NCBI RefSeq assembly: GCF_013315695.1
Contig: NZ_CP054353.1
Reading direction: 5' to 3' (one strand)
DNA from: Escherichia coli
GTDB taxonomy: Bacteria > Pseudomonadota > Gammaproteobacteria > Enterobacterales > Enterobacteriaceae
DNA length: 64,000 nt
Positions 432-21,050 of the stretch are shown piece after piece. Below the pieces are notes generated by a model. That model worked only from the letters and a program-made list of their open reading frames with translations. It searched no databases and had not been told where the DNA came from. The position numbers and the translations under genes were made by a program. Positions within the stretch are counted from its first letter, which is position 1, and each line of letters begins with the position of its first letter.

Positions 432-1901
432 TTACATCATTACGACGTCAAACTGCTCCTGGTTATAGAGCGGTTCAATTTGTACTTTAACCTGTTTGCC
501 AACGAAAATTTCCACTTCCGCCAGCGAGTGTGACTCTTCGCCTTTCAAGGCTTCGGCTACTGCCGGAGAAGCATAGACCAGGAAACGGTCGGAGTCGTAA
601 GCATGGTGGACACGAACAATCTCGCGCATGATTTCATAGCATACCGTTTCCACGGTTTTCACCGTTCCGCGACCGTGGCAGGTTGGGCATTCGTTACACA
701 GTACGTGCTCAATGCTTTCGCGGGTGCGTTTACGCGTCATCTCCACCAGCCCCAGCGCCGAAAAACCATTAACGCTGGTTTTCACCCGATCTTTGCTCAA
801 CGCCTGCTCCAGCGAGTGCAGCACGCGGCGGCGGTGATCTTCATTATTCATATCGATGAAATCAATAATGATAATCCCGCCCAGATTACGCAACCGTAAC
901 TGGCGAGCGATAGCCTGCGTCGCTTCAATATTGGTATTGAAAATGGTGTCGTCCAGATTGCGATGACCGACAAACGCCCCGGTATTGATGTCCACGGTGG
1001 TCATCGCCTCGGTCTGGTCGATAATCAGATAGCCACCGGATTTCAGTTCTACTTTGCGTTCCAGCGCCCGCTGGATTTCGTTTTCGACATCAAAGAGATC
1101 GAAAATCGGCTGGCGTCCGGTGTAATGCTCCAGCTTGCTGGTCATCTCGGGAATGTACTCCGAGGTAAACTCCAGCAATGCTTCGTAAGTCAGGCGTGAG
1201 TCAACGCGAATGCGGTCGAGTTCGGCGTCGGCGAAATCACGCAGAACACGCTGCGCCAGCGCCAGTTCGCCGTACAGCTGATAACGGGTCTGTGGGCGCT
1301 TTTTACGCTCCATAACTTTGGTCCAGACGCGTTTCAGATAAGCGGCATCGGAGGCCAGTTCAGCCTCGCCAACCCCTTCCGCTGCGGTACGGATGATAAA
1401 CCCGCCCTGCTCGTCGCAATACTCTGCGACCACTTTTTTCAGGCGTTCACGTTCTGATTCGCTTTCAATTCGTTGGGAAACCCCAACGTGAGAAGCCCCT
1501 GGCATAAATACCAGATAGCGAGAAGGCAGCGTGATATCGGTGGTCAGGCGCGCACCCTTAGTGCCAAGCGGATCTTTCACCACCTGCACCATCAGATCTT
1601 GCCCCTGACGGACCAGCTCCGAGATGTCGCGCACCGTGAATTGCTTTTGTTCTTCACCCGCCACACATTCGGTGTGCGGCATGATGTCAGATGCATGAAG
1701 AAACGCGGCTTTATCCAGCCCAATATCTACAAAAGCCGCCTGCATACCCGGAAGTACACGACTTACACGACCCTTGTAGATATTGCCTACTATTCCGCGT
1801 CGCGCCTCACGTTCAATATGAATTTCCTGCAGAATACCGCCATCAATATACGCCACTCGCGTTTCCGAAGGCGTTACGTTTACTAACAATTCAGCCGTCA
1901 T
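432..1901 (-). CDS. rng: Ribonuclease G
   Basis: ORF-track protein 432..1919 contains [22 protein letters not shown]..., the remembered RNase G N-terminus; start placed at that Met (489 aa) rather than the upstream in-frame Met. Confidence 0.93.
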
Positions 1902-2484
1902 GTTTATCCCTTTTCTCACGCAGTGCGTTAAAATTACTTAATAATTCATACGTTTCAACCAGCGGTAAGCCGACTACGGCGTGATAGCTGCCATTTATCT
2001 TCCTGACAAAACAGCCACCCAGCCCCTGAATACCGTATGCACCTGCTTTATCTAACGGTTCACCGCTGGCGACATAGCCCGCGATGTCTTCGTCTGTTAA
2101 CGTTCTGAAAGTCACATCGGTGACCACCAGGCAATCGAGAATGTGCTGGCTGTCGGCCAACGCCACTGCCGTCATTACCTGATGGGTCTGACCCGATAAT
2201 TTGCGCAACATCTGCGCCGCATGCTCTGCGTCGCGCGGTTTCTCCAGTACTTCTCCGTTCAGGATAACGATAGTATCCGCACCCAGCACCGGGAGATCCT
2301 GCGCCGTTTGCGCGACACCCGCCTGTGCTTTCTCGCGCGCCAGACGCACAACATACTGCTGCGCGCTCTCCTGCGGCTGACGCTGCTCCTCAATGCCCGT
2401 AACAATACGTTCAAAGGTTACGCCAAGTTGCGCAAGTAACTCCTGACGACGCGGAGAACCGGAAGCTAAATACAGAGAAGTCAT
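1891..2484 (-). CDS. yhdE: Maf-like nucleotide pyrophosphatase
   Basis: 197-aa translation [21 protein letters not shown]... (Maf family); position between mreD and rng as in E. coli. Confidence 0.93.
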
Positions 2485-2492
2485 AGAAACCT

Positions 2493-4084
<1,592 letters not shown>

Positions 4085-4149
4085 AAGTTATGCGTATTCT
4101 CGTATCAGACCAGGCAGGGTAAACAGACGCTTCCCCTGCCTGCATCCGA

Positions 4150-5319
<1,170 letters not shown>

Positions 5320-5497
5320 TTACAAATCTCTGCCTGAGTCCAGAAAGGCTTAATGCATCAGCAGCATTCCTCGCCTGTTTGCAACCGCGTAAGGTCATTC
5401 ATCTGCATATGTGCTGCAACAATCTGGCGAGCAGACAAGCACACTCCCATGAGACGCAGCGCGCGTTATTCTACGTGAAAACGGATTAAACGGCAGG

Positions 5498-7438
5498 TTA
5501 AACCGAGTATCTTTGTGAATATTTTTTCACGTTAGTATCAAGTGGCTGTGAGGACGCGAAAAAATCCCCTTGCCCACCTGTAACACCGCGCTGAATCAGG
5601 GTCTGCCACTCGCTTCGCGAACGCACGCCGGTGGCGTAAACCTGGGTGCTGGTCCCGGAGCAGGCTTCCACCAGGCTTTGAACCAGCAGCTGGTTCTCCG
5701 TTCGCTTCTCAATGTTTCTGACCAGCCCCGGATGGAGCTTGAGTAACTCAACATTAAGTTCTTTGATCCAACTGGTGCTTACCAGCGTCAAACCAGCCTG
5801 GTTGACGGCTACCCGTACCCCTAAAGCATTCACTAAACGAATAACAGGTTGTAAGCGACTGATATGTTGACCTACATCGGCCTCTGCAAGTTCAATAATT
5901 ATGCGTTTTCGTTGCGATCTTTCACATTGCATTAACGTATCGCGCAGCCAACGCTGAAAACGCGGGCGAATCAGCGACTCAACGGTAACCTGAATCGCCA
6001 GATTTTCCTCCGGCCAGTAACGCAATAGTGGAATCAGACGGCTGATTTGCAGGCGGTCATACTCTTCCGATAAGCCAAACTGCAAGACCATCGGCATATA
6101 CTCCGCCGAGCTAACCTCTTCATTACCATCGAAGATGCGGCACATGAGTTCGCGATGATGAACCTGACCTTCGCGAGTAACCGCCGGTTTTTGATAAAGG
6201 CGCGGGCCGCCGCGACTCAGCATTTGCTCGATAAGCGTACGCCAGCGAACATTACCGCGTCCTTTTTCAGGCAACGAGTCATCGTAAATAGCCCAGCTAT
6301 TGCCGCCCTGCAATCCCGCATTACGCGTGGCAGACTCTGCATGTTCCATTACCTGCTCGGTATCCTGACCACTACGCCAGGCACAGATACCAATGTGGAT
6401 CATATCGTCGCGATCGAGCATTTTATTGTTCGGCAAGGTATCGACGGCTTTGATTAACTGACTGGCGATGCTCTCTGCCTCTTTTAACGTCCGGTGCGGT
6501 AACAGCGCAGCAAAATCACTGCGGTGGTAACGCGCCAGCAGTGCGCCAGGGTAGCGCATCATAAATGTCGATAGCAGATTCGTCAGAGAGAAGAACTGTT
6601 CTTCAACCTGGCTGTGCCCCCAGGTATCACTCAACATATTGAAATCCGGCAGACGAATCATCATCACGATCCCGTGGGTACCTACTTTCTCCTGATCTTC
6701 CAGTAACGTTGCTAACTGATTATCGAAGAAGAGTCGGTTATTGAGGCCGGTTTTCATGTCCTGGGCGGCATAAGAGCGGATCAGCGTATCAAGACGGCTG
6801 TGTTGTTCGCGTGCGTTCTGAATTTCACAAAGCAGCGTATCCAGCGCACTGCTGGTTCTGGGCGGCCATTCATAGATGGTTCCCAACACATTAGAGCCAC
6901 GCTCACCGTTTAAGATACGAGTAGCCCGGGTTTCCAGCAATTCTTGCCCGGCAAGTTGCCGTTGTAACCAGCGTACCGCCAGGAAGAGCATAAGAATGAT
7001 AAAGCCAATCGCCCCCGTGAGCGGCGCGGTAGTCATTAAAGAATGGAAATAGTTGCCCATCGGATCCTGATAAACCAGACGCAGCGACATCCCCGGATGC
7101 TTTATCAACGGAACGCTCAGTTCGCGAAACAGATCGCTGGTGCCAACCGGACGATAACTACCATTTCTGGCCAGGGTATATACCTGTTTATCACTATGCA
7201 GCAGGTCTACACGAACGATATCTGCTGACATCATTAATTCGGTAATTTGTGGCCTTAATGCGCTGAAGTCATTCGACACAAGATGGGTATCAATCGCCGT
7301 CGCCACCGCCTGAACGCGATGACTAAACTTATACTGAATGGCGTTGTAGAAACTTAGCGAACAGCCCAGCAAAGTCACAAAAATTGTTAACCCGGTGAGC
7401 AGCGTAACAAAGGCCGAAAATTTCGTCGTTAATCTCAT
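5498..7438 (-). CDS. csrD: CsrD, degenerate GGDEF-EAL protein that targets CsrB/CsrC sRNAs for decay
   Basis: 646-aa translation with N-terminal transmembrane segments and GGDEF/EAL-like domains; matches remembered CsrD (YhdA). Confidence 0.92.
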   Translation of the reverse strand: MRLTTKFSAFVTLLTGLTIFVTLLGCSLSFYNAIQYKFSHRVQAVATAIDTHLVSNDFSALRPQITELMMSADIVRVDLLHSDKQVYTLARNGSYRPVGTSDLFRELSVPLIKHPGMSLRLVYQDPMGNYFHSLMTTAPLTGAIGFIILMLFLAVRWLQRQLAGQELLETRATRILNGERGSNVLGTIYEWPPRTSSALDTLLCEIQNAREQHSRLDTLIRSYAAQDMKTGLNNRLFFDNQLATLLEDQEKVGTHGIVMMIRLPDFNMLSDTWGHSQVEEQFFSLTNLLSTFMMRYPGALLARYHRSDFAALLPHRTLKEAESIASQLIKAVDTLPNNKMLDRDDMIHIGICAWRSGQDTEQVMEHAESATRNAGLQGGNSWAIYDDSLPEKGRGNVRWRTLIEQMLSRGGPRLYQKPAVTREGQVHHRELMCRIFDGNEEVSSAEYMPMVLQFGLSEEYDRLQISRLIPLLRYWPEENLAIQVTVESLIRPRFQRWLRDTLMQCERSQRKRIIIELAEADVGQHISRLQPVIRLVNALGVRVAVNQAGLTLVSTSWIKELNVELLKLHPGLVRNIEKRTENQLLVQSLVEACSGTSTQVYATGVRSRSEWQTLIQRGVTGGQGDFFASSQPLDTNVKKYSQRYSV

Positions 7439-7589
7439 CCTTGTGTTAACTCCGATAGTGAGGAAGCGGGCATACTAGCAAATCAGATTTATCTCGCAAT
7501 TTATTGCGCTTCATCGGCTTTGCTTTTCCATTAGCGAGTATAGTCTTCAGAAATTATTTTCCAATCCATCATGCACATGAGGACCACTT

Positions 7590-8564
7590 ATGCAGGCGTT
7601 ACTTTTAGAACAGCAGGACGGCAAAACTCTCGCATCAGTACAGACTCTGGACGAAAGTCGCCTGCCGGAAGGCGATGTCACGGTTGATGTTCACTGGTCG
7701 AGCCTGAACTACAAAGATGCGCTGGCAATTACCGGTAAGGGAAAAATCATCCGTAATTTTCCGATGATTCCTGGGATCGATTTTGCCGGAACTGTACGCA
7801 CCAGCGAAGATCCGCGTTTTCATGCCGGTCAGGAGGTGTTACTCACTGGCTGGGGCGTTGGTGAAAACCACTGGGGTGGGCTGGCGGAGCAGGCGCGAGT
7901 GAAAGGTGACTGGCTGGTTGCCATGCCGCAAGGGCTGGACGCGCGTAAAGCAATGATTATCGGTACTGCCGGTTTTACCGCCATGCTGTGTGTGATGGCG
8001 CTGGAAGATGCCGGTGTTCGCCCGCAGGACGGCGAGATTGTCGTAACGGGTGCCAGTGGTGGCGTCGGCAGTACCGCCGTGGCGCTGCTGCATAAGTTGG
8101 GTTATCAGGTCGTTGCCGTTTCCGGTCGCGAAAGTACCCATGAATATCTGAAAAGTTTAGGAGCCAGCCGTATTCTCCCTCGCGATGAGTTTGCCGAATC
8201 CCGTCCTCTGGAAAAACAAGTCTGGGCTGGGGCAATTGACACCGTTGGCGACAAAGTGCTGGCAAAAGTGCTGGCGCAAATGAATTACGGCGGCTGCGTG
8301 GCGGCCTGTGGTCTGGCGGGTGGTTTTACTCTGCCAACCACGGTCATGCCATTTATTCTGCGTAATGTCCGTTTGCAAGGGGTGGATTCAGTAATGACGC
8401 CACCAGCACGCCGCGCACAAGCCTGGCAGCGACTGGTCGCCGATTTACCGGAATCATTCTATACCCAGGCGGCAAAAGAGATATCTCTGGCAGATGCACC
8501 GAAGTTTGCCGAGGCCATCATTAATAACCAGATCCAGGGTCGCACGCTGGTGAAGGTTAACTAA
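7590..8564 (+). CDS. acuI: Acryloyl-CoA reductase / quinone oxidoreductase-like (MDR superfamily)
   Basis: 324-aa translation MQALLLEQQDGKTLASVQTLDESRLPEGDVTVD... with Gly-rich nucleotide-binding motif (VTGASGGVGS); matches remembered YhdH/AcuI. Confidence 0.92.
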   Translation: MQALLLEQQDGKTLASVQTLDESRLPEGDVTVDVHWSSLNYKDALAITGKGKIIRNFPMIPGIDFAGTVRTSEDPRFHAGQEVLLTGWGVGENHWGGLAEQARVKGDWLVAMPQGLDARKAMIIGTAGFTAMLCVMALEDAGVRPQDGEIVVTGASGGVGSTAVALLHKLGYQVVAVSGRESTHEYLKSLGASRILPRDEFAESRPLEKQVWAGAIDTVGDKVLAKVLAQMNYGGCVAACGLAGGFTLPTTVMPFILRNVRLQGVDSVMTPPARRAQAWQRLVADLPESFYTQAAKEISLADAPKFAEAIINNQIQGRTLVKVN

Positions 8565-8600
8565 CCATTTAGCAAGGATTAATAAGAGAGGGAACTCATT

Positions 8601-9431
8601 TTGAAATCATTATTCAATCGGTTAACGGGAAAAGCGGTTAGCCGGACAGCTTTCGTCGAACATCTTGGTCATGAAGTTGTACAACATCATCCAAACTGGA
8701 AAGTCATGATTTCGACTGACCATAAATTGATGCGCATTGATACGGGTCACCAAACGGTGGAAATCACTCTTGATGATGCCTACAAACGTTATCAAGCCGC
8801 ACCAGACCCGCTGGAAGAAGTGGCTGCAGATATGCTGAAACAGCTTGCAGAAATGCTGCCGACCGGGCGCTGTATTGTTCCGGTGATTAAAGAAAAAGCC
8901 TGGCTGGATACCGTTCGCCAACAGCTTAGCCAGTATGAATCTGATCCAGAGATCCTCAACGCCTCGCTGGATTTTGCCTGGGAAGACTTTAACGATGAGT
9001 TAATTATCTTGTTTGCTGAAGATGGTAGCGAAACCATGCGCTATCTGATGCGCTACGAAGTGACCATTGACCGCGAACAAGCCATCAATAATTTGAAGCA
9101 AATATTGCCGGAAGTTTCGGCTGAAATCGTTGATACAGGCGCAAACGCTGGAAAAGTTGCCGTTATCTCCGCAGGGGGTACTTATGAGCCCAGTCTGATG
9201 CTCATTGACGATCTTTGGGTGCAATCACCCGATCCTGAATGCGGCGACCTGTTAGTGACTGTTCCCTCCAGAGGAAAACTGTTTTTCACCTACAATGATC
9301 AGCCAGCAAATCTCAGCGCATTACGACAGTTAACAGAACAATGCTTCCGTGAGGATGACCATCCTCTGACAACACAGATATTCATCCGCCGTAACGGTCA
9401 CTTTTATCCCTGGGTAGAAACCTTGCATTAA
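8601..9431 (+). CDS. Hypothetical protein, 276 codons, function unknown
   Basis: Long uninterrupted ORF 36 bp downstream of acuI, TTG start preceded by a purine-rich stretch (agagaggg); first in-frame ATG is at 8706. Composition is protein-like, with some rare codons (AGA, ATA, CGA). A hairpin plus T-tract lies about 65 bp downstream. I do not recognise the product. Confidence 0.45.
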   Translation: MKSLFNRLTGKAVSRTAFVEHLGHEVVQHHPNWKVMISTDHKLMRIDTGHQTVEITLDDAYKRYQAAPDPLEEVAADMLKQLAEMLPTGRCIVPVIKEKAWLDTVRQQLSQYESDPEILNASLDFAWEDFNDELIILFAEDGSETMRYLMRYEVTIDREQAINNLKQILPEVSAEIVDTGANAGKVAVISAGGTYEPSLMLIDDLWVQSPDPECGDLLVTVPSRGKLFFTYNDQPANLSALRQLTEQCFREDDHPLTTQIFIRRNGHFYPWVETLH

Positions 9432-9494
9432 CGCAACCTCCGTCATGCTTGAAAAAGCTTGTCGGAGTATGTGATGAATGCTGCAAACTCACCG

Positions 9495-9527
9495 AAGCCG
9501 ATTTTGCCACCAAATCGGCTTTTTTAT
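9495..9527 (+). terminator. Candidate intrinsic terminator downstream of the 276-codon ORF
   Basis: Inverted repeat gccgattt / aaatcggc around a short loop, followed by ttttttatt. Confidence 0.5.
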
Positions 9528-9989
9528 TGTCACGCGGCAAATTCTGAATGCATCACATAGCCGCACTGCCGCCTGACAAAACAGTTTACCTTCTGCAAAA
9601 TGGGGGGAATAATCTGATTTTATTTGATTACAAATTAACCACTTAAACCTATTTAATGCTGAGCATTGTCAGTCGGTTGATTTTGCGTGCTTTAGCATTC
9701 ACATCTATCCAGACGATGCAGTGAAAATTGGGTAATCCCCAGCAACCGCTGCGTAATGTCGTCTATCTTGTCGCGATCCTGGCATCCCTACATTATTTGT
9801 GGTCTGTGAAGATTATCTCATTGCAGCCCCTCATCTTCGCAGGGCTGGCTTTACAGCTTTTCACCTTACGTTATAAGAAGTTCCGTCGATGATGGCGCTA
9901 ATTTCGTGAATTGTGCGGCTTGTTGCAAATTACACGGTGTTGAAGGTTATTTACATGTTAGCTGTTGATTATCTTCCCTGATAAGACCA

Positions 9990-10035
9990 GTATTTAGCTG
10001 CCAATTGCTACGAAATCGTTATAATGTGCGACCTC
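9990..10035 (+). promoter_or_regulatory. Candidate accBC promoter, -10 hexamer tataat at 10020..10025
   Basis: Perfect tataat about 270 bp upstream of accB; the accBC promoter is known to sit unusually far upstream of accB. The -35 assignment is ambiguous by eye. Confidence 0.4.
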
Positions 10036-10296
10036 GTCCTCCCTGACGCAGTTTTTGCGCTGCGGAAAAGGTGACATTGGCGCAACGAAGGTATATTTTG
10101 TTTTTTGCCGGAGGATAGCAGCAGATCGCTGCACAATGTCCGTCAAGTCTAACATTGACACTCTGGGGCAAAATAGACCGGCGTCCCGGCCTGCTGGAAT
10201 TTATCGCTATGCATACAGCTGTCGGGGCATACGCTTTACAGACGGCGGTGAAACGCCTGTCACAATCACACTAAACAAAGAGTACGGAACCCACTC

Positions 10297-12127: not shown

Positions 12128-12172
12128 TTTGTGATGCGCGGTGTTTTCATCGCGCTTAGCAAAGAACGTAAT

Positions 12173-12206
12173 CAACGCCGGGCCTGTTAACGCTGCCCGG
12201 CGTTTT
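12173..12206. terminator. Bidirectional intrinsic terminator shared by accC (+) and the convergent island gene (-)
   Basis: GC-rich inverted repeat cgccgggc ... gcccggcg followed by ttttta on the plus strand; sits between two convergent stop codons (12127 and 12219). Confidence 0.6.
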
Positions 12207-12218
12207 TATTGCCGTTAG

Positions 12219-13265
12219 CTAACGGTAGCTTGCAATTTCCGCTTTCAACGCGCTAATTTCAGCATCGCCATCAACAATTCCCAGCTCAAAGCAGTATGTC
12301 TTTGTTTCCCCTGGCTCTATAAAGGGCAGACGCCCCTGCGCTCGTTCTTTATCACGACCGTCAGGAAAACTATTGCTGACCTCCAGCCCCATAACATATT
12401 CACCCGCGCCTAAATTTTTCCAGTGGATAAAGTTGGGTAGCTGCATGGTGTCGAATTTCTCGTAAATTCCCCACCCCAGTTCGGCGTTCACCAGCGCAAC
12501 TTTACTCATCCCCTGACTGTCGCTATTCAACGTGAGATAGTAAACCTGCTCGTCAAAACCGGGCTGTGGGGTACAAATCTCCAGATGACTGGTTAACCCT
12601 TCCGCCGCATGCGGGGTTCGTGGCGTTACGCTTTTAGCCGACAGCAAGATTTCTGCCTGTGGCGATAATAAAGGCCAGCCGTAATTAAAGTGATAAAGAA
12701 TTTGCAGCGGCTGGCGGGTGAAACCATGATTAGTCACCTTGTCTTCAATGCGCAGCACATTTTCGCCATAACGGCAGCGAATGGTCCTTTCCAGCGTCAG
12801 ATTTTCACCGAACAATCGTGTTTCCCGTACTTTGCCATTGATGACAAATTCAATGCCGTCGTCGGTCCGTTCTGTGCGATACCCCACCTCTTCTGCTGGA
12901 GTCGCAGCCAAACGCCCGTGTAACCCCAGCGTTTCTCCGTTATCCTCACAGGGCGTGCCAATGTAGCTAAGTCCGCAGGTAGTCAGTAACCCCGCGTAGA
13001 AGCTACGTAAAAACCCGTTGCCCTGAGACTCAAAAAAAGCGGGGGCGACAATGCCGTTGGGGGTGATAAAAGAGAGCGCAGTATCCTTGTAGCTGGCCCA
13101 TGCAATATCCAGCGCGCGATCTTTTACCACCGTAAATGCCAGTCCCGCACCAGTACGGACATCAAACGCTTCTGTCCCCTTTGCTCTGCCACTACGTAAC
13201 TCATAGTGTTTAATTCCGGCAACCTGCGAGAGATCGCCAATCCACGACCAAATTTCGTTTTTCAT
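12219..13265 (-). CDS. Island protein, 348 aa; possibly aldose-1-epimerase (mutarotase)-like, assignment tentative
   Basis: Complete ORF whose stop/start overlaps the start of the downstream kinase gene (13262..13265), i.e. operon-coupled. No signal peptide or transmembrane segment seen. Family call is impression only. Confidence 0.65.
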   Translation of the reverse strand: MKNEIWSWIGDLSQVAGIKHYELRSGRAKGTEAFDVRTGAGLAFTVVKDRALDIAWASYKDTALSFITPNGIVAPAFFESQGNGFLRSFYAGLLTTCGLSYIGTPCEDNGETLGLHGRLAATPAEEVGYRTERTDDGIEFVINGKVRETRLFGENLTLERTIRCRYGENVLRIEDKVTNHGFTRQPLQILYHFNYGWPLLSPQAEILLSAKSVTPRTPHAAEGLTSHLEICTPQPGFDEQVYYLTLNSDSQGMSKVALVNAELGWGIYEKFDTMQLPNFIHWKNLGAGEYVMGLEVSNSFPDGRDKERAQGRLPFIEPGETKTYCFELGIVDGDAEISALKAEIASYR

Positions 13266-14224
13266 TGTGCTGCTTCCCGAATGGACATGTCATGGCGCTG
13301 GATGAACGCTTCGATTTCCGCAAGGCGAGACGTTCCCTCCATTGGGCCACGTCGGGTTACCGCCAGTGCACCGCAGGCGTTGGCATATTGTAATGCCCGA
13401 TGGGCGTCAAACCCTAGCTGGCGGCAGGCAATCCACGCGCCACCAAAACAGTCTCCCGCACCGGTCGGGTCAACTTCTTCCACCGGATAGCTCTCAACAT
13501 GAAACTGCTCATTCGCGGAGTAGTAACTGGCACCTTGATTGCCGCGCTTCACAATCACCTCTTTAACACCTTCTTCAAGAAAACCAGCGATTGCACGCTC
13601 CGGTGTCGAGTGTGGCGACAAGAGCAACACTTCTCCCTCGCTGGGCATATAGATATCTGTTAACTCAAGAACAAAGTGGAGGGCGTCACGCATTTCTGGA
13701 ATATCGAGCATCTCTTTCCGAATATTAGGGTCAAAAGAAATAACGCCACCATTCTCTTTTACAATGGTTACCGCTTTCTTTACTGCGTCTACCATATGGA
13801 ATGAAAACAGGGATGAACCCATAATATGAAAATGGGTACAGTCCTTCAGAATATTTTCATCAACATGCTGCGCCGATAATTTACCGCAAGCGGCATTCTT
13901 GATATTAAAAATAAAATCGCGATCGCCAGAGTTATGATAAGTAACAAAGGCACTCCCGGTAGCTTCCAGAGGTAAGACTGAAATCCCCCTGATATCCACA
14001 CCGTCAGCAGCCAGACGATGTATATTAATATCACCAAAGCCATCATTCCCCACACAGCTAATGATGCCGCACGGAACGCCAAGACGTGTCACCTGGTCGA
14101 TAAAAATAGCGGGTGCGCCACTGGGATAAGGGCCGTTCCAGATACCTGGTTGATCAAATGGCTGGCCGATTTTACTCGCCATAATTTCAACCAGAATTTC
14201 TCCAATTGTGAAGACCTTACTCAT
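13262..14224 (-). CDS. pfkB/ribokinase-family sugar (phosphate) kinase, copy 1
   Basis: 320-aa translation with the family's C-terminal signature DPTGAGDCFGGA and an N-terminal Gly-rich substrate region. Confidence 0.85.
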   Translation of the reverse strand: MSKVFTIGEILVEIMASKIGQPFDQPGIWNGPYPSGAPAIFIDQVTRLGVPCGIISCVGNDGFGDINIHRLAADGVDIRGISVLPLEATGSAFVTYHNSGDRDFIFNIKNAACGKLSAQHVDENILKDCTHFHIMGSSLFSFHMVDAVKKAVTIVKENGGVISFDPNIRKEMLDIPEMRDALHFVLELTDIYMPSEGEVLLLSPHSTPERAIAGFLEEGVKEVIVKRGNQGASYYSANEQFHVESYPVEEVDPTGAGDCFGGAWIACRQLGFDAHRALQYANACGALAVTRRGPMEGTSRLAEIEAFIQRHDMSIREAAQ

Positions 14225-14245
14225 ATGATTAATTCCTTGAAATGA

Positions 14246-15235
14246 TTAGCTGCGTTTTCTTTTATTTCTTACGTCAAAATAAACGGCTACAAGAATGACT
14301 AATCCTTTAACCACCATCTGATAGAAATAGGGAACGTTCATTAAGTTCATGCCATTATTAATAACGCCGATGGTTAATGCCCCGATTACCGTCCCCACCA
14401 CGGTTCCATAGCCGCCGTTCAGGCTGGTGCCTCCCAGTACAGCCGCAGCAATAGCATCCAGTTCGTAGCTCAACGCGGAATTCGGTTGCCCGGAATAGAG
14501 GCGTGAGGCGAGGATCATCCCGCTGATACCTGCCAGCACAGCTGTAATCATAAAGACTTTTATTTTCAAGCGGGTGACATTTATCCCTGAATAAACTGCC
14601 GCTTCTTTATTACCACCAGTGATATAAATCTTTCGTCCAAAGGTTGTTTTAGTAAGAATGAAATGGTTAATCAGCAATAAGATAATTAATATCCAGATTG
14701 GAATAGGTATATAGAGAAATTCTCCATTCCCCAGCGCCAGAAAGGCATCATCTTTAATCATGATGGGCATACCATCGGTCACTATATAAGCGATACCACG
14801 GAAGATCCCCATAGTAGCAACGGTGACAATAAACGACGGGATCCCCGCTATAGCCGTCAAGCCACCATTTATCATCCCCAGAGCCAGGGCTGCAATAATG
14901 GATAATGGGACCAATAAAATAAATGGAATTCCCCATGAAGCCCCAAGCGCAGCAAATGTGCCAATCAATGCAATGGTTGAACCAACCGATAAATCAATAT
15001 CGCCAAGCAAAAGTACGTAAGTCATTCCATAGGCGGTAATTGCAATTATCGAAACCTGAAGAATAATATTAGTAATGTTATTGGCGGTAAAAAAACTGTC
15101 ATTAATAAAACTGAACAGAATGATTAACACCACCATTCCACTGAGGATACCGCCATATTGCCTGAAGACTTTTTTAAAATTATTTGCAATGGGAATTTCC
15201 GAAGGTTTCGGACTGGCAAGAGTTTTCTCTGTCAT
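14246..15235 (-). CDS. ABC sugar transporter permease (RbsC-like)
   Basis: 329-aa highly hydrophobic protein with multiple predicted membrane spans; immediately downstream of, and contiguous with, the ATPase gene. Confidence 0.85.
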   Translation of the reverse strand: MTEKTLASPKPSEIPIANNFKKVFRQYGGILSGMVVLIILFSFINDSFFTANNITNIILQVSIIAITAYGMTYVLLLGDIDLSVGSTIALIGTFAALGASWGIPFILLVPLSIIAALALGMINGGLTAIAGIPSFIVTVATMGIFRGIAYIVTDGMPIMIKDDAFLALGNGEFLYIPIPIWILIILLLINHFILTKTTFGRKIYITGGNKEAAVYSGINVTRLKIKVFMITAVLAGISGMILASRLYSGQPNSALSYELDAIAAAVLGGTSLNGGYGTVVGTVIGALTIGVINNGMNLMNVPYFYQMVVKGLVILVAVYFDVRNKRKRS

Positions 15236-16735
15236 TTAACGTACTCCTGTTGCAGCGGTCATTACCTGTGTCTGCGTTAAATTTTCACATGAATAAATAT
15301 CGGCAATCGTTTTATTACGCATTACCACCAGACGATCGCTAAGTGCCATGACTTCTGGCAGTTCAGAGGACACCAGAATAATTGCTGTCCCTGCCGCAGC
15401 CAGTTGACGTATCACGTTATAGATTTCAAATTTTGCGCCGACATCCACTCCGCGCGTTGGCTCATCGAGCAATAAAATACGCGGAGTTTTCTCCAGCCAC
15501 TTCGATAACACGATTTTCTGTTGATTACCGCCGCTCAGTGCTCCCACTGCCTGATGTACAGAACTCACTTTAGTGTTCATTCTGGCAATTGATTGCAGCG
15601 TCTTCGCCTCTTCTTGTCGGTGATTGATAAGTCCTATCCGCGAAGCGTTATATTGAAACGCCACATGGTGCGTGTTCATATTGACGTCGTGCATCAGCAC
15701 TAACCCTTCTTCCTTGCGGTTTTCGGTCACAAAAGCAATGCCATGATCAATAGCCTGTTTGGGATTAGCGATCCTGACTTCCTTACCATCAATCAACACA
15801 GTCCCGTGATACGAAACGAGGCCAAATAGCGCCTTCATCACATCGGAACGCCCGGCCCCCACCAGGCCAAAAAATCCGAGGACTTCCCCCGGACGCACAG
15901 CGAAACTGACCTCTTTAAAAAGCGAAGGATGGGAAAGGTTTTTTACTTCCAGTTTTGCAGGAACATTTTCATCCGGCTTTTCCCCAAGACGTGCTGGCCA
16001 AATATTTTTCATTTCCCGACCAACCATTTGGGCAATCAAATGCTGGATATCACTGTTTTTCTTTTCATGCGTAGCGATATACTCACCGTCGCGGATCACC
16101 GAAATATCATCTGAAATCCGCATAATTTCATCCATGCGATGAGAGATATAAATAACCGCACAACCTCGCTGCTTTAATTTCTCAATAATGTTAAACAGAA
16201 TCTCTGCTTCATTATCACTTAGCGAAGATGTCGGTTCATCCATAATCACGACATCTGCTGCATAGCTTAAGGCTTTGGCAATTTCTACCAGTTGCCTATG
16301 TGCCATCGACATATTGCCGACCATTTCCAGCGGATCCAGTGGGATGCCCAGTTCCGCGAGGAGATTCTGGCAATCTGCGAGCATTTTTTTATCGTTAATA
16401 ATGCCAAAACGTCGCGGTTCATTATTGGCATAAATATTTTCCGCCACGGTCATATTATTACTCAGGCTCAGTTCCTGAAAAATAATCGCAATCCCTAACT
16501 GGCGAGAATGCTGCGGATTATTAATGGTGATGGTTTCACCACGTAGTGTTATCGTTCCCTGGGTTGGCGGATAAACACCGGCGAGTATTTTCATTAATGT
16601 CGATTTACCGGCACCATTCTCGCCTAATAAAGTATGCACCCGCCCTTTACGTAAAGAGAGGGTAATATCTTTTAATGCCTGAACATGACCAAATGTCTTC
16701 GCAATATGCGAAACATCAAGAATAACATCCGTCAT
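15236..16735 (-). CDS. ABC sugar transporter ATP-binding protein with duplicated nucleotide-binding domains (RbsA-like)
   Basis: 499-aa translation with two Walker A motifs (GENGAGKST; GLVGAGRS) and two ABC signature motifs (LSGGNQQK-type), typical of monosaccharide importer ATPases. Confidence 0.9.
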   Translation of the reverse strand: MTDVILDVSHIAKTFGHVQALKDITLSLRKGRVHTLLGENGAGKSTLMKILAGVYPPTQGTITLRGETITINNPQHSRQLGIAIIFQELSLSNNMTVAENIYANNEPRRFGIINDKKMLADCQNLLAELGIPLDPLEMVGNMSMAHRQLVEIAKALSYAADVVIMDEPTSSLSDNEAEILFNIIEKLKQRGCAVIYISHRMDEIMRISDDISVIRDGEYIATHEKKNSDIQHLIAQMVGREMKNIWPARLGEKPDENVPAKLEVKNLSHPSLFKEVSFAVRPGEVLGFFGLVGAGRSDVMKALFGLVSYHGTVLIDGKEVRIANPKQAIDHGIAFVTENRKEEGLVLMHDVNMNTHHVAFQYNASRIGLINHRQEEAKTLQSIARMNTKVSSVHQAVGALSGGNQQKIVLSKWLEKTPRILLLDEPTRGVDVGAKFEIYNVIRQLAAAGTAIILVSSELPEVMALSDRLVVMRNKTIADIYSCENLTQTQVMTAATGVR

Positions 16736-16795
16736 AATGACCTCGGTGTCACAACAAAACGTCGATAACGTTTTGTTGTGAAATGAAGATGTTTA

Positions 16796-17686
16796 TCATT
16801 TACCTGTATAAACGCCGGGTTGTACCGGGATCATTTTTTCTACCGGTTTACCATTGAGGTGATCAACAGCGGCATCAATGGCTTTAGCACCCATTTGATC
16901 GGGATATTGCCGAATCACGGCCGCAAACGTTTTTTCACTGTCAACGGCATCACGCGCTTCTTTCATGCCGTCAAAACCAATGATTTTGATGTTGTCGTTA
17001 TGCGCAGATTTCGCTGCGATAACCGCTGCCAGCGCCGCATCATCACCAAAGCCAAACAGACCATTCAGGTTGGCATTTGCCTGCATAATGTTTTGCGCAG
17101 TCGTTAACGCTTCAGCCCGCGTAATACCAGGCTGTTCAGCAACAATTTTAATATCCGGTGTATCGCTTAACCCTTTCTTAAAACCATCAACGCGCGCAAC
17201 CACCGATTGTAATGCCGGATAAGAAATAATGGCTACAGTACCTTTACCATTCAAAAGTTTGCCCATTAACTTGCCTGCTTCAACGCCTCCCGCGTAGTTA
17301 TCGGTCGCAACATGCGATACGACCGGAACGCCTTCCGCAGCGACGTCGACGGTGATAACGGGAATACCGGCCTTATCGGCTTTAATTATCGCCGCCTGGA
17401 CGCCTTTCGAATCGACCGGAGAGATAATAATGGCATCCACTTTTTTAGTAATAAAATCCTCAACATCAGAAAGTTGTTTGTTTAAATCCTGATTGGCAAT
17501 AGAGACACTTAAATTGACATTGTCTTTTTTTGCCTCTTCTTTCATGGCATTCGCAAGATCAATATAGAAAGGATGTTGCTGTGTTAATAATGACGCACCA
17601 ATTTTATACTCTTTTGCCAACGAGCTTTGCGAGAACAATGCCAGGCTCACCAACATAGCTGAACCAAGTAATTTAATATTTTTCAT
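16796..17686 (-). CDS. Periplasmic sugar-binding protein (RbsB-like)
   Basis: 296 aa with N-terminal signal peptide (MKNIKLLGSAMLVSLALFSQSSLA) and periplasmic-binding-protein-like sequence. Confidence 0.85.
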   Translation of the reverse strand: MKNIKLLGSAMLVSLALFSQSSLAKEYKIGASLLTQQHPFYIDLANAMKEEAKKDNVNLSVSIANQDLNKQLSDVEDFITKKVDAIIISPVDSKGVQAAIIKADKAGIPVITVDVAAEGVPVVSHVATDNYAGGVEAGKLMGKLLNGKGTVAIISYPALQSVVARVDGFKKGLSDTPDIKIVAEQPGITRAEALTTAQNIMQANANLNGLFGFGDDAALAAVIAAKSAHNDNIKIIGFDGMKEARDAVDSEKTFAAVIRQYPDQMGAKAIDAAVDHLNGKPVEKMIPVQPGVYTGK

Positions 17687-17721
17687 AAATAATCCTCATT
17701 GTTTTTGTAGGGTACAACATC

Positions 17722-18603
<882 letters not shown>

Positions 18604-18697
18604 TTACAAAATGAAGAAAGAGAATCTTCACTTTCATTTTGAAAGCAAACTAGCACAGCAAAAGCGGCAAAAAGCGTGATGCATGTCGAATATCATC

Positions 18698-18722
18698 AAA
18701 ATAACTTACAAAAAATAACTTA
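18698..18722. repeat. Tandem direct repeat aaaataactta (two copies, 14-bp register) in the divergent island control region
   Basis: Exact 11-bp repeat at 18698..18708 and 18712..18722, between the divergent aldolase operon and the DeoR-family regulator gene. Confidence 0.35.
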
Positions 18723-18917
18723 ATTTGTTTTTTACTTTGTAAGTGAAACCAATGACACCTCTGCATAAATATGAATATATTCATTTATTTTTCAATGTAT
18801 TAAGCTATTTTCGTTGCGATTTTTGACCCATGATTTTCTTTTCGAATTGTCGATATTATTGAAGGGTAACTTTCAAAGAAAAATACAAGGGGCTATAGTG
18901 TTACGCATTAAAGGCCA

Positions 18918-19748
18918 ATGAAGAGTGTTAACGTGCCGAGAAAATCGTCTAACCTACTGAAACGCAGATTAAAAATTGCAGAAATTGTTGCCGCCCAGGG
19001 TGAAATCAAAGTTGATGACTTATCTGCGCAACTTGGTGTCTCTAGCGTGACGATCCGCGGCGATCTCAGTTATCTGGAGCAACAGGGATATTTAAAGCGA
19101 TCATTTGGCGGTGCTATTGCGACACCACTCTCCTCTGAACCAGAAGCGATACAACCGATCGCGCCGTTGTCTCTGGCACAACAAATGGAAATAGCACGAC
19201 ATTGCGCACGGTTAATTCGGGATCGTGACACGCTATTTCTTGGACATGGGACAATCTGCCGTAAGATCATTCCCTTGCTCAGCGAAGTGAAAAAACTGCG
19301 TCTGATCACCAACGATCCCGAACATGCGCTGCTGGCAAATCAGTTTATTGATGGCGAAATAATACTGGCTGGCAGTGAAATGCTGCGCCCCGATACCGCA
19401 CTGGCCGGAAAACCTCTCGAACAGGCACTTCAGCATTTCACCATTACACATAGCATTCTGGAAATCAGCCATCTGGATGCTGATGGTACTTTAAATATCA
19501 ACGTTCCCAGACTTGCCGCTGCCTGGCAGCTCTGTTTCGATAATGCCCAGAATAAGACGGTTATCGTTGCCGCCGATCCTGCGCCATCAACGGCTGCTAT
19601 CGGGCATTTGCATCAAGCAGAAAATGTGATCGTCAGCCGCAGCATTAACGAACAATATCAGCAACAATTGCAGTCGGCTGATTTCGTTATCCTTTATACC
19701 AGTAATGAGTGCTTTACCTGGTCCAATCGCGAAAGGCTTCAGGAATGA
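18918..19748 (+). CDS. DeoR-family transcriptional regulator
   Basis: N-terminal helix-turn-helix pattern ...IAEIVAAQGEIKVDDLSAQLGVSSVTIRGDLSYLEQQGYLKRSFGGA..., as in GlpR/DeoR proteins; transcribed divergently from the transporter/aldolase operon. Confidence 0.8.
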   Translation: MKSVNVPRKSSNLLKRRLKIAEIVAAQGEIKVDDLSAQLGVSSVTIRGDLSYLEQQGYLKRSFGGAIATPLSSEPEAIQPIAPLSLAQQMEIARHCARLIRDRDTLFLGHGTICRKIIPLLSEVKKLRLITNDPEHALLANQFIDGEIILAGSEMLRPDTALAGKPLEQALQHFTITHSILEISHLDADGTLNINVPRLAAAWQLCFDNAQNKTVIVAADPAPSTAAIGHLHQAENVIVSRSINEQYQQQLQSADFVILYTSNECFTWSNRERLQE

Positions 19749-19758
19749 GAGGGGTTTT

Positions 19759-20715
19759 GTGACAATAACTATCTGCGCTATGGGCGAATTGCTGGCCGAG
19801 TTTTTGTCCCGCAACCCACATCAAAAATTCACTCAGCCTGGGGAGTTTATCGGGCCATTTCCCAGCGGTGCACCAGCAATTTTTGCTGCTCAGGTGGCAA
19901 AACTGTCCCATCGGGCCATCTTCTTCGGATGTGTTGGTAATGATGATTTTGGCCGACTCATTATAGAGCGTCTCCGTCATGAAGGTGTCATTACCGATGG
20001 GATTCACGTTATGAACAATGCCGTCACAGGTACGGCGTTCGTGAGTTATCAAAATCCCCAGCAGCGGGATTTCGTCTTTAATATCCCTAACAGCGCCTGC
20101 GGTTTGTTTACTGCCGAGCACATTGATAAGGATCTGCTTAAACAGTGTAACCATCTGCATATTGTGGGCTCATCGTTGTTCTCATTTCGCATGATCGATG
20201 TCATGCGTAAAGCAATAACGACGATCAAATCGGCTGGCGGAACCGTTTCTTTCGATCCCAATATTCGCAAAGAGATGCTGAGCATTCCTGAAATGGCGCA
20301 GGCCCTCGATTATTTGATTGAATATACGGATATTTTTATCCCCAGCGAAAGCGAACTCCCTTTCTTCGCGCGTCACAAAAATCTGTCAGAAGAACAGATT
20401 GTTAGCGATCTTCTCCACGGCGGCGTAAAACATGTGGCGATAAAACGCGCCCAGCGTGGGGCCAGCTATTACAAGCTTAAAAACGGTACATTACACGCCC
20501 AGCATGTTACAGGCCACGATATCGAAATTATCGATCCAACGGGTGCAGGCGACTGCTTTGGCGCAACGTTTATCACTCTTTTCTTATCCGGTTTCCCGGC
20601 ACACAAGGCGCTGCAATATGCAAATGCCAGCGGCGCGCTCGCCGTAATGCAGCAAGGTCCGATGGAAGGGATATCCTCACTGACTGACATTGAAGACTTT
20701 TTGCAGCAGCACTGA
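19759..20715 (+). CDS. pfkB/ribokinase-family sugar (phosphate) kinase, copy 2
   Basis: Paralogue of the 13262..14224 kinase (shared blocks PSGAPAIF, GSSLFSF, SFDPNIRKEML, DPTGAGDCFG, LQYANA.GALAV). Start set at GTG 19759, just after the regulator stop and a gagagggg stretch; the ORF-track start at 19705 overlaps the regulator. Confidence 0.85.
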   Translation: MTITICAMGELLAEFLSRNPHQKFTQPGEFIGPFPSGAPAIFAAQVAKLSHRAIFFGCVGNDDFGRLIIERLRHEGVITDGIHVMNNAVTGTAFVSYQNPQQRDFVFNIPNSACGLFTAEHIDKDLLKQCNHLHIVGSSLFSFRMIDVMRKAITTIKSAGGTVSFDPNIRKEMLSIPEMAQALDYLIEYTDIFIPSESELPFFARHKNLSEEQIVSDLLHGGVKHVAIKRAQRGASYYKLKNGTLHAQHVTGHDIEIIDPTGAGDCFGATFITLFLSGFPAHKALQYANASGALAVMQQGPMEGISSLTDIEDFLQQH

Positions 20716-20807
20716 ACGGCAATTTTCTGTCAGATTATTTTCCCTGCCTGAAGAGTTGCCGTAGAATTGCCCGTTTCTCGTATCCCCCCATGAGGAGGAC
20801 CCCTTCC

Positions 20808-21050
20808 GTGGACACTCGTTTTGTTCAGGCCCATAAAGAGGCGCGCTGGGCGCTGGGGCTGACCCTTTTGTATCTGGCGGTATGGTTAGTAGCCGCTTAC
20901 TTACCTGGCGTTACCCCCGGTTTTACCGGCTTTCCACGCTGGTTTGAGATGGCTTGCATCCTGACGCCGCTGCTGTTTATTGGACTGTGCTGGGCGATGG
21001 TGAAATTTATCTATCGCGATATCCCACTGGAGGATGACGATGCAGCTTGA
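20808..21050 (+). CDS. yhdT: Small membrane protein YhdT
   Basis: Translation (V/M)DTRFVQAHKEARWALGLTLLYLAVWLVAAYL... (80 aa) from a GTG; overlaps the panF start. Confidence 0.85.
   Translation: MDTRFVQAHKEARWALGLTLLYLAVWLVAAYLPGVTPGFTGFPRWFEMACILTPLLFIGLCWAMVKFIYRDIPLEDDDAA

What the first reader, a model, noticed from the sequence alone, without database searches (positions are those of the whole stretch)
12219..13265. 348-aa island protein of uncertain family at the distal end of the transporter operon
The protein is translationally coupled to the upstream kinase (overlapping stop/start) and has no export signal, so it is a cytoplasmic enzyme candidate. My assignment as mutarotase/aldose-epimerase-like is tentative. 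If correct, it would supply anomer or epimer interconversion for the imported sugar; if not, it is the least understood component of the cluster.
Basis: inference. Interest (0 to 1): 0.4.

Follow-up and report, generated by a model that had tools for sequence, protein, structure and literature searches.

The report
tagE, a putative tagatose mutarotase
The 348-residue protein is TagE, the last gene of the published E. coli D-tagatose utilisation island; it has the fold and catalytic residues of a sugar mutarotase, most likely helps turn imported tagatose into the ring form the kinase can use, and its activity has never been measured.

Summary
The ORF is real. It lies at 12219-13265 on the minus strand, encodes 348 aa, and its ATG overlaps the stop of the upstream PfkB kinase (ATGA). 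It has no hydrophobic leader and is under strong purifying selection (dN/dS 0.03-0.06).

It is not an unknown gene. It is tagE (ECOLIN_RS18670) of the accC-yhdT "tag" island described in E. coli Nissle 1917 in 2022 and 2025, and it is present in 1421 of 5426 complete E. coli genomes. RefSeq calls it "aldose 1-epimerase family protein". Both papers state that its function is untested.

- Pfam DUF4432 matches full length (E 3e-104).
- His116, His192 and Glu295 are invariant in the 50-sequence alignment and line up with GalM His104, His175 and Glu309.
- It is not a member of the classical PF01263 family by sequence.

Relatives sit next to sugar ABC importers and enzymes that act on free sugars: mannosidases, D-lyxose/mannose isomerase, dehydrogenase plus lactonase, and kinases.

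My best reading is that TagE is a cofactor-free mutarotase for free D-tagatose (D-lyxo-hexulose). It would feed the furanose form to the 6-kinase, as RbsD does for ribose. This is ordinary and already published, and the biochemistry remains open.

The parts
12219..13265 (-). tagE coding sequence (348 aa plus TAG stop). DUF4432 protein with a galactose-mutarotase fold.
13262..13265 (-). ATGA overlap: the tagE start codon overlaps the tagD kinase stop codon (translational coupling).
   Evidence: Sequence read. ORF coordinates.
13273..13278 (-). Shine-Dalgarno-like GGGAAG, 7 nt upstream of the tagE ATG, inside the 3' end of tagD.
   Evidence: Read directly from the sequence. This is inference, not a tested site.
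12918..12920 (-). Codon for His116 (LGLHGR motif), the proposed equivalent of E. coli GalM His104.
   Evidence: Invariant in 50 of 50 homologues, in 72 of 72 and in 247 of 250. Aligned to GalM H104 by profile-profile alignment.
12690..12692 (-). Codon for His192 (ILYHFNYG motif), the proposed general acid equivalent to GalM His175.
   Evidence: Invariant and 249 of 250. Aligned to GalM H175.
12381..12383 (-). Codon for Glu295 (MGLEVSNSFPD motif), the proposed general base equivalent to GalM Glu309.
   Evidence: Invariant and 246 of 250. Aligned to GalM E309.
12175..12210 (.). GC-rich hairpin (ACGCCGGGC / GCCCGGCGT) followed by a T-run on the + strand. It lies between the convergent accC and tagE genes and is a likely shared terminator.
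   Evidence: Sequence. The terminator-like scan hit a shorter version of this hairpin at 12189-12204.
13262..14224 (-). tagD, the PfkB-family D-tagatose kinase immediately upstream of tagE.
   Evidence: Pfam PfkB. NCBIfam TagKinase at 413.9 bits against a cut-off of 420. Deleting it in Nissle 1917 abolishes growth on tagatose (PMC9720028).
14246..17686 (-). tagC (permease, 14246-15235), tagB (double ATPase, 15236-16735) and tagA (RbsB-type periplasmic binding protein, 16796-17686).
17722..18576 (-). tagY, a class II tagatose-bisphosphate aldolase (GatY-like). It is the first gene of the operon.
   Evidence: Pfam F_bP_aldolase. NCBIfam GatY subfamily at 529 bits.
18918..20715 (+). Divergent tagR (DeoR regulator, 18918-19748) and tagK (second PfkB kinase; RefSeq start at 19780, end at 20715).
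   Evidence: Gene names come from PMC12226905.
12128..20808 (.). The whole 8.68-kb insertion between accC and yhdT. It is absent from K-12.
   Evidence: BLAST of the K-12 junction against the window. GC profile. PMC9720028.

Best explanation
TagE is a soluble cytoplasmic sugar mutarotase that needs no cofactor. It belongs to the DUF4432 branch of the galactose-mutarotase fold.

By analogy with GalM, Glu295 would take the proton from the anomeric hydroxyl while His192 protonates the ring oxygen, with His116 and Arg87 holding the sugar. This opens the hemiketal ring so that it can re-close in another anomeric or ring form.

Its substrate is most likely free D-tagatose just delivered by the TagABC importer. 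D-tagatose exists mainly as alpha-pyranose, in which O6 is the ring oxygen. The next enzyme, TagD, phosphorylates O6 and so needs the minor furanose or open-chain form. TagE would speed up that interconversion so the kinase is not limited by slow spontaneous mutarotation. RbsD (ribose pyranase) plays this role next to RbsK, and GalM plays it next to GalK.

TagE is expected to be an accessory, rate-enhancing enzyme rather than an essential one.

Shown here: the fold, the conserved catalytic residues, operon membership, purifying selection, and the free-sugar contexts of relatives. Taken from the literature: induction by tagatose (PMC9720028). Inferred: the substrate, the direction (pyranose to furanose), and the non-essential role.
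For: Fold and family:
- Pfam DUF4432 matches full length.
- The model has pLDDT 96.

Catalytic residues:
- H116, H192 and E295 are invariant in 50 homologues, in 72 of 72 and in 246-249 of 250. They are also conserved in 3TY1.
- Their local motifs (LHG, H-x-[YF]-x-N/FN, G-L-x-LE...PD) mirror E. coli GalM H104, H175 and E309.
- A full-length profile-profile alignment puts all three in register.

Operon:
- The ATGA overlap couples it to the tagatose kinase.
- All six genes are induced more than 40-fold by tagatose, and the six-gene cluster confers growth on tagatose (PMC9720028).

Relatives sit with enzymes that act on free sugars:
- An RbsB-type ABC importer, then DUF4432, then an SDR and a lactonase (L007).
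- An ABC importer, then D-lyxose/mannose isomerase, then DUF4432 in Paenibacillus (L016).
- GH38/GH92 alpha-mannosidase, then DUF4432, then Lyx_isomer in Bacteroidota.
- Isomerase plus FGGY kinase plus aldolase plus DUF4432.

An independent tag-like cluster:
- A Clostridiales MAG has an ABC importer, a class II aldolase, a PfkA-type kinase, a TagKinase-like PfkB and then DUF4432, with the same kinase-then-DUF4432 order (L034).

Chemistry and architecture:
- D-tagatose is D-lyxo-hexulose, so it shares the configuration of D-lyxose and D-mannose (established nomenclature). It is predominantly alpha-pyranose (PMC12429656).
- The same architecture is seen in K-12 galK-galM (7-nt overlap) and yphFEDCB.

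Selection:
- dN/dS is 0.03-0.06.
Against: No activity has been measured for TagE or for any DUF4432 protein in the literature I could search. No single-gene tagE deletion has been reported.

Sequence-level homology to characterised mutarotases is not significant. hhalign against single GalM or YeaD sequences found nothing, and my four-paralogue profile gave only E 0.05. The residue equivalence therefore rests on fold plus motif order.

No GalM-fold enzyme is known to me that interconverts pyranose and furanose forms or that acts on a ketose.

Alpha- and beta-proteobacterial tagatose clusters work without a DUF4432 gene (PMC9720028).

The enterobacterial TagE clade has changed residues that are otherwise near-invariant: Pro296 to Val (next to the catalytic Glu), His244 to Leu, and Gly61 to Asp. 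Its chemistry could therefore differ from the rest of the family.
Confidence: 0.55

Rival explanations
1. TagE is a sugar-phosphate mutarotase. It would interconvert the alpha and beta furanose anomers of D-tagatose 6-phosphate, the product of TagD, to supply the anomer used by PfkA. Less likely, it would do the same for tagatose 1,6-bisphosphate to supply TagY. Yeast YMR099c and E. coli YeaD do this for hexose 6-phosphates.
Against: Many relatives sit in operons with no kinase, next to enzymes that take unphosphorylated sugars: SDR plus lactonase, D-lyxose/mannose isomerase, and GH38/GH92 mannosidases. GalM also uses an Arg for sugar hydroxyls, and TagE R87 aligns beside GalM N77/R78. Furanose-phosphate anomerisation is fast without an enzyme (general knowledge, not tested here).
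Confidence: 0.15
2. TagE is a mutarotase for a different sugar carried by the same importer, not for tagatose. The candidate would be an aldose of lyxo configuration, such as D-lyxose, D-mannose or D-talose. On this reading the physiological substrate range of the island is broader than tagatose.
For: Of 68 non-enterobacterial relatives, 18 lie near alpha-mannosidases or D-lyxose/D-mannose isomerase. The family name and the fold point to aldoses. Tagatose is rare in nature. The island also carries a second kinase of unknown role, tagK (PMC12226905).
Against: tagE is induced more than 40-fold by tagatose together with the rest of the operon. The island has no aldose isomerase. The enterobacterial clade has diverged from the mannose-context relatives at conserved pocket-proximal positions (P296V, H244L), which fits a change of substrate.
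Confidence: 0.15
3. TagE is a true epimerase or isomerase. One version is a tagatose 6-phosphate 4-epimerase giving fructose 6-phosphate. That would make it the positional counterpart of Sinorhizobium TagE.
For: It occupies the position held by the Tag-6-P epimerase gene in alpha- and beta-proteobacterial clusters (PMC9720028). The pfkA dependence of growth does not by itself separate the two routes, because fructose 6-phosphate also needs PfkA (my inference).
Against: No sequence or fold relation to known Tag-6-P epimerases was found; Pfam finds only DUF4432. The fold has no metal or NAD site, and I know of no member that inverts a non-anomeric carbon. The operon carries a dedicated tagatose-bisphosphate aldolase.
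Confidence: 0.05
4. TagE is non-catalytic. It would be a stabilising or activating partner of the TagY aldolase (as GatZ is for GatY), or a sugar-binding regulator.
For: GatY and KbaY need Z subunits, and the island has none (PMC9720028). DUF4432 is found with class II aldolase genes in several clusters.
Against: The mutarotase His/His/Glu set is conserved throughout the family. Most DUF4432 contexts have no aldolase: only 3 of 68 non-enterobacterial loci do. There is no similarity to GatZ/KbaZ.
Confidence: 0.05

Closest known systems
tagE / ECOLIN_RS18670 of the E. coli Nissle 1917 D-tagatose cluster (Ha et al. 2022, PMC9720028; 2025, PMC12226905)
   Same: It is the same gene, in the same accC-yhdT island, with the same gene order tagYABCDE and divergent tagRK. 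Most E. coli copies are 98-99% identical at the nucleotide level. It carries the same annotation, 'aldose 1-epimerase family protein'.
   Different: Nothing of substance differs. The allele in this window is identical to strain MSB1_4I. The published work did not test the gene's function.
PDB 3TY1, KPN_04629 of Klebsiella pneumoniae ('hypothetical aldose 1-epimerase', a structural-genomics entry)
   Different: It is a distant paralogous branch. No function or ligand information was available to me.
Galactose mutarotase GalM (Pfam Aldose_epim PF01263; E. coli GalM, L. lactis 1L7J)
   Different: There is no significant sequence similarity. GalM acts on aldopyranose anomers, whereas the proposed TagE substrate is a ketohexose. 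TagE carries an extra C-terminal helix (residues 334-345).
RbsD D-ribose pyranase (rbsDACBK operon), and FucU
   Same: The proposed role is the same. It would convert the pyranose form delivered by an RbsB-type ABC importer into the furanose form, whose terminal hydroxyl the PfkB-family kinase can phosphorylate.
   Different: The fold and family are unrelated; Pfam reports only DUF4432 for TagE. This is an analogy of function only, and it is inferred.
YeaD / yeast YMR099c hexose-6-phosphate mutarotase
   Different: These enzymes act on sugar phosphates. The DUF4432 contexts point to free sugars.

Membership tests
Pfam DUF4432 (PF14486) | A full-length match to the family HMM above the gathering score. 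| tested here: met
   348.6 bits against a cut-off of 32.5, E 2.9e-104. Residues 29-329 cover profile positions 2-303 of 304.
Galactose-mutarotase-like fold (superfamily level) | A beta-sandwich fold that superposes on stand-alone mutarotases. | tested here: met
   [not shown]
Galactose-mutarotase-like enzymes | Catalytic His (substrate positioning), His (general acid) and Glu (general base) are conserved. | tested here: met
   H116, H192 and E295 are invariant in 50 and in 72 homologues, and 246-249 of 250 in a wider set. They align to GalM H104, H175 and E309 in a full-length profile alignment, although its E-value is only 0.05. The motifs were compared directly.
Galactose-mutarotase-like enzymes | Measured mutarotase activity on a defined sugar. 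| not testable with these tools
   No biochemical data were found for any DUF4432 protein. The Nissle papers state that the function is untested.
Aldose 1-epimerase family proper (Pfam Aldose_epim PF01263: GalM, YeaD, YphB, YihR) | Sequence match to the family model or to its members. | tested here: not met
   Pfam lists only DUF4432 at E up to 0.01. hhalign of the DUF4432 profile against GalM or YeaD gives probability below 1%. A HMMER profile search of the PDB reaches only 3TY1.
RbsD/FucU pyranase-mutarotase family | Homology to RbsD or FucU. | tested here: not met
   No such Pfam or NCBIfam hit, and the fold is different. Only a functional analogy is proposed.
Tagatose-6-phosphate 4-epimerase (the Sinorhizobium/Agrobacterium 'TagE') | Homology to the known Tag-6-P epimerases. 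| tested here: not met
   DUF4432 is the only family found. PMC9720028 calls the two sequences 'highly divergent'. The shared gene name is a coincidence of nomenclature.
E. coli tag (D-tagatose) operon | Located in the accC-yhdT island, co-oriented with tagYABCD and the last gene after it. | tested here: met
   Gene order and annotation. Junctions with K-12. Description in PMC9720028 and PMC12226905.

The most novel reading that the evidence does not exclude
DUF4432 is a distinct, so far uncharacterised family of mutarotases. It has about 3,200 clusters at 50% identity. On this reading it is specialised for lyxo-configured sugars: D-mannose released by GH38/GH92 mannosidases, D-lyxose, and D-tagatose (D-lyxo-hexulose). 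The enterobacterial TagE clade would then have a remodelled pocket (P296V, H244L, G61D). It would be the first GalM-fold enzyme shown to act on a ketohexose, converting tagatopyranose to the furanose form needed by the 6-kinase, as a structural newcomer doing RbsD's job.
Probability: 0.3. Interest if true: 0.5.

Novelty: already known. Interest (0 to 1): 0.27.

Why it matters
The tag island marks the B2 and F phylogroups (extra-intestinal and adherent-invasive E. coli, and the probiotic Nissle 1917). Tagatose is entering the diet as a sweetener and is being used as an inducer for engineered Nissle strains.

TagE is the only structural gene of the operon without an assigned reaction. Knowing whether it sets the rate of tagatose entry into glycolysis would help to model or tune that pathway.

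More broadly, a measured activity for TagE would give a first function to DUF4432, a large family found next to mannosidases and sugar importers in gut Bacteroidota and Bacillota.

None of this is surprising to a specialist. The gene, its label and the open question are already in print.

Tried and rejected
1. Direct profile comparison of the DUF4432 alignment with single GalM and YeaD sequences gave no significant alignment. A HMMER profile search of PDB sequences reached only 3TY1. The residue equivalence had to come from a weaker four-paralogue hhalign (E 0.05) together with fold searches.
2. NCBIfam has no model for the protein.
3. Literature searches for DUF4432, PF14486, 3TY1, KPN_04629, mannose/tagatose/fructose mutarotase, and tagatose plus mutarotase returned no biochemical characterisation.
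4. The AlphaFold-database Foldseek library was not available.
5. I considered that TagE replaces GatZ as an aldolase partner. I rejected this because the catalytic residues are conserved and most family contexts lack an aldolase.
6. I considered a Tag-6-P 4-epimerase, because of the position it shares with Sinorhizobium tagE. I rejected this on fold and lack of homology.
7. I considered that the ORF might be decaying. I rejected this: dN/dS is 0.03-0.06 and the gene is full length in nearly all carriers.
8. I could not place the invariant arginines in three dimensions because model coordinates are not exposed. The question of free sugar versus sugar phosphate therefore rests on genomic context only.

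Full report
**Observation**

The window holds an ATG-initiated ORF of 348 codons at 12219-13265, on the minus strand. Its start codon overlaps the stop codon of the upstream 320-aa ORF (13262-14224) as ATGA. A GGGAAG hexamer lies 7 nt upstream of the start.

The product has no hydrophobic leader and no membrane segment. The maximum Kyte-Doolittle mean over 19 residues is 0.96.

It is the last of six co-oriented genes:
- a class II tagatose-bisphosphate aldolase (17722-18576)
- an RbsB-type binding protein (16796-17686)
- a double ATPase (15236-16735)
- a permease (14246-15235)
- a PfkB kinase that scores 414 bits on NCBI's tagatose-kinase model
- this ORF

A DeoR regulator and a second PfkB kinase are transcribed divergently. 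A 9-bp GC hairpin (12175-12203) separates the ORF from the convergent accC.

**Identity of the locus**

The 8.7-kb segment matches 1422 of 5426 complete E. coli genomes and is 100% identical to strain MSB1_4I. RefSeq there annotates the ORF as 'aldose 1-epimerase family protein' between accC and yhdT.

K-12 homology ends exactly at the accC stop codon (12127) and resumes at the yhdT start (20809). GC falls to 0.42-0.45 inside the segment.

This is the D-tagatose cluster described in E. coli Nissle 1917 (PMC9720028):
- The six genes are induced more than 40-fold by tagatose.
- The cluster confers growth on tagatose to K-12, B and W strains.
- Deleting the kinase abolishes growth, and PfkA is required.

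A 2025 paper names the genes tagY, tagA, tagB, tagC, tagD and tagE, plus tagR and tagK (PMC12226905). The ORF under study is tagE (ECOLIN_RS18670). Both papers call it a putative aldose 1-epimerase, and the first lists its untested function as a limitation.

**What the protein is**

Pfam assigns residues 29-329 to DUF4432 (E 2.9e-104) and to nothing else. NCBIfam has no model.

The only solved relative by sequence is 3TY1 from Klebsiella, a structural-genomics 'hypothetical aldose 1-epimerase' (E 3e-32 with the single sequence, 1.7e-56 with a profile).

The family is large. There are 3177 clusters at 50% identity with E up to 0.001. They are spread over Bacillota, Bacteroidota, Poribacteria, Armatimonadota, Chloroflexota and some archaea. 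Outside a few Enterobacteriaceae (83-85% identity), the nearest relatives are only 45-57% identical. This fits horizontal acquisition.

**Catalytic residues**

In the 50-sequence alignment the invariant residues include His116, His192 and Glu295, together with Arg50, Asp53, Arg87, Arg118, Asn179, Asn194 and Tyr290. The three candidates remain invariant in 72 locus-derived homologues and hold in 246-249 of 250 more distant ones. They are also conserved in 3TY1.

Their local motifs parallel those around the E. coli GalM residues at positions 104, 175 and 309:

| TagE residue | TagE motif | GalM residue | GalM motif |
|---|---|---|---|
| His116 | LGLHGR | His104 | NQLHGG |
| His192 | ILYHFNYG | His175 | MTNHVYFN |
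| Glu295 | MGLEVSNSFPD | Glu309 | LALESEFLPD |

From my own knowledge, these are GalM's catalytic His, His and Glu. The PDB lists the equivalent L. lactis mutants H96N, H170N and E304Q.

Sequence-level homology to PF01263 is not demonstrable. The tool's hhalign against single GalM or YeaD sequences found nothing. A profile of 251 DUF4432 sequences against an alignment of the four K-12 paralogues (GalM, YeaD, YphB, YihR) gave a full-length alignment with E of only 0.05. That alignment does place all three pairs in register, and it puts Arg87 beside the GalM Asn77/Arg78 sugar-binding pair.

I therefore treat TagE as a sister family with the same fold and the same catalytic equipment. I do not treat it as a member of the classical aldose 1-epimerase family.

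**Genomic context of relatives**

I looked at six contexts with precomputed Pfam calls and at 80 loci from reference genomes. For the 80 loci I called ORFs myself and scanned the same-strand neighbours against Pfam.

Among 78 immediate neighbours the most frequent families were:
- GH38 alpha-mannosidase: 10
- GFO/IDH/MocA oxidoreductases: 6
- GH92 alpha-mannosidase: 3
- FGGY kinases: 3
- SDRs: 3
- MFS transporters: 3
- D-lyxose isomerase: 2
- PfkB kinases: 2

One gene further out, the counts were D-lyxose isomerase 4, RbsB-type binding proteins 4, GH92 3 and FGGY 3.

Of the 68 non-enterobacterial loci, 18 carry a GH38, GH92 or D-lyxose/D-mannose-isomerase homologue. Many of these are Bacteroidota with one conserved arrangement, so they are not independent observations.

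Individual cases are telling:
- ABC importer, then D-lyxose/mannose isomerase, then DUF4432 in Paenibacillus (L016).
- LacI, then ABC importer, then DUF4432, then SDR, then lactonase (L007).
- Isomerase, FGGY kinase, class II aldolase and DUF4432 (L004, L005).

A Clostridiales MAG (L034) has an ABC importer, a ROK kinase, a class II ketose-bisphosphate aldolase, a PfkA-type phosphofructokinase and a PfkB whose best model is tagatose kinase (279 bits). DUF4432 comes directly after that kinase. This is a second, self-contained tag-like cluster with the same kinase-then-DUF4432 order.

These are the places where mutarotases are normally found: after a transporter or glycosidase and beside the first enzyme that acts on the free sugar. 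K-12 itself shows the same layout in galK-galM (7-nt overlap), yihQ-yihR and yphFEDCB.

**Proposed mechanism**

D-tagatose is D-lyxo-hex-2-ulose. Its pyranose ring has the configuration of D-lyxopyranose, which D-mannopyranose also shares at the three carbons next to the anomeric centre. This is established nomenclature.

The mannose and lyxose contexts of the family and the tagatose context of TagE are thus chemically coherent. That link is my inference.

Tagatose is predominantly alpha-pyranose (PMC12429656). My recollection of Angyal's NMR data is that furanoses make up about 10% or less; I did not check this here.

In a ketohexopyranose O6 is the ring oxygen, so a 6-kinase needs the furanose or open-chain form. 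I propose that TagE opens the hemiketal ring by acid-base catalysis, with Glu295 as base and His192 as acid. This would accelerate equilibration and supply TagD. RbsD does the same for RbsK in the ribose operon, which is served by a homologous type of importer.

The role should be accessory. Alpha- and beta-proteobacterial tagatose clusters lack DUF4432.

Shown: fold, residues, operon membership, selection and contexts (induction by tagatose comes from PMC9720028). Inferred: substrate, pyranose-to-furanose direction, and dispensability. My confidence is about 0.55.

**Rival explanations**

- A tagatose-6-phosphate anomerase, like YeaD and YMR099c, is compatible with the fold and with the position after the kinase. 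It fits the kinase-free contexts of relatives poorly (0.15).
- A mutarotase for another lyxo-configured aldose taken up by the same importer cannot be excluded (0.15).
- A true C-4 epimerase, suggested only by the position it shares with Sinorhizobium tagE, has no support from fold or homology (0.05).
- A GatZ-like non-catalytic partner of the aldolase is contradicted by the conserved catalytic residues and by the many aldolase-free contexts (0.05).

**A caution, and a lead**

The enterobacterial TagE clade differs from the rest of the family at positions that are otherwise nearly fixed:

| Position | Residue in 250 relatives | Residue in enterobacterial TagE |
|---|---|---|
| 296 (next to catalytic Glu295) | Pro in 250 of 250 | Val |
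| 244 | His in 206 of 250 | Leu |
| 61 | Gly in 236 of 250 | Asp |
| 188 | Met in 216 of 250 | Gln |

The Clostridiales tag-like homologue keeps the family consensus at these positions.

The clade is under strong purifying selection (dN/dS 0.03-0.06). This therefore looks like a functional shift rather than decay. It could reflect adaptation to the extra hydroxymethyl group on the anomeric carbon of a ketose, or it could reflect something I have not foreseen.

**Verdict**

The gene and its cluster are already published and annotated, so the finding is not new. What remains open is the biochemical activity of TagE and of DUF4432 as a whole, for which I found no experimental data.

Interest is modest, at about 0.27.

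Noticed in passing
window 12381-12383 region (TagE residues 61, 188, 244, 296): Enterobacterial TagE replaces the family-invariant Pro296 (250 of 250 relatives), which sits next to the catalytic Glu, with Val. It also replaces His244 (206 of 250) with Leu, Gly61 (236 of 250) with Asp, and Met188 (216 of 250) with Gln. The Clostridiales tag-like homologue keeps the consensus. This may be a specificity switch.
   Followed up: partly
window 19780-20715 (+), tagK: A second PfkB kinase sits beside the DeoR regulator. It scores 346 bits on the tagatose-kinase model and is reported as 51% identical to TagD. It is induced only about 2-fold by tagatose and has no known role. The mechanical ORF starts earlier (19705) and overlaps the end of tagR.
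   Followed up: no
window 12128-20808: The island replaces the entire 109-bp K-12 accC-yhdT spacer, including K-12's own accC terminator hairpin. It supplies a new hairpin after accC and a new yhdT upstream region.
   Followed up: yes
window 8601-9431 (+): A 276-aa TTG-started ORF is annotated 'hypothetical protein' (WP_000838294.1). It lies between a zinc-dehydrogenase gene (7590-8564) and accB, in a low-GC stretch (0.447). No Pfam family scores above cut-off; the only hit is a sub-threshold DUF1444 match at E 0.009.
   Followed up: partly
L034 (Clostridiales MAG JAJUJH010000033.1), 582-9152: A self-contained tagatose-like cluster. It has an ABC importer, a ROK kinase, a class II aldolase, a PfkA-type phosphofructokinase, a 189-aa protein with no family, a TagKinase-like PfkB, and DUF4432.
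   Followed up: partly
H36, E. coli ATCC 25922 (NZ_CP037449.1 1495443-1496488); protein P0017: The tagE match in ATCC 25922 spans 1046 nt instead of 1047, which may be a frameshift. A 493-aa PfkB+DUF4432 'fusion' protein at 97% identity (P0017) probably reflects a frameshift across the ATGA overlap rather than a real fusion.
   Followed up: no
L013 (E. coli E69, CP089930.1) 9001-10047: This E. coli strain carries a tagE allele with dS of about 0.49 relative to the window (95% protein identity). That is far more divergent than usual within the species and suggests a separate acquisition or an old allele.
   Followed up: no
[not shown]
   Followed up: no
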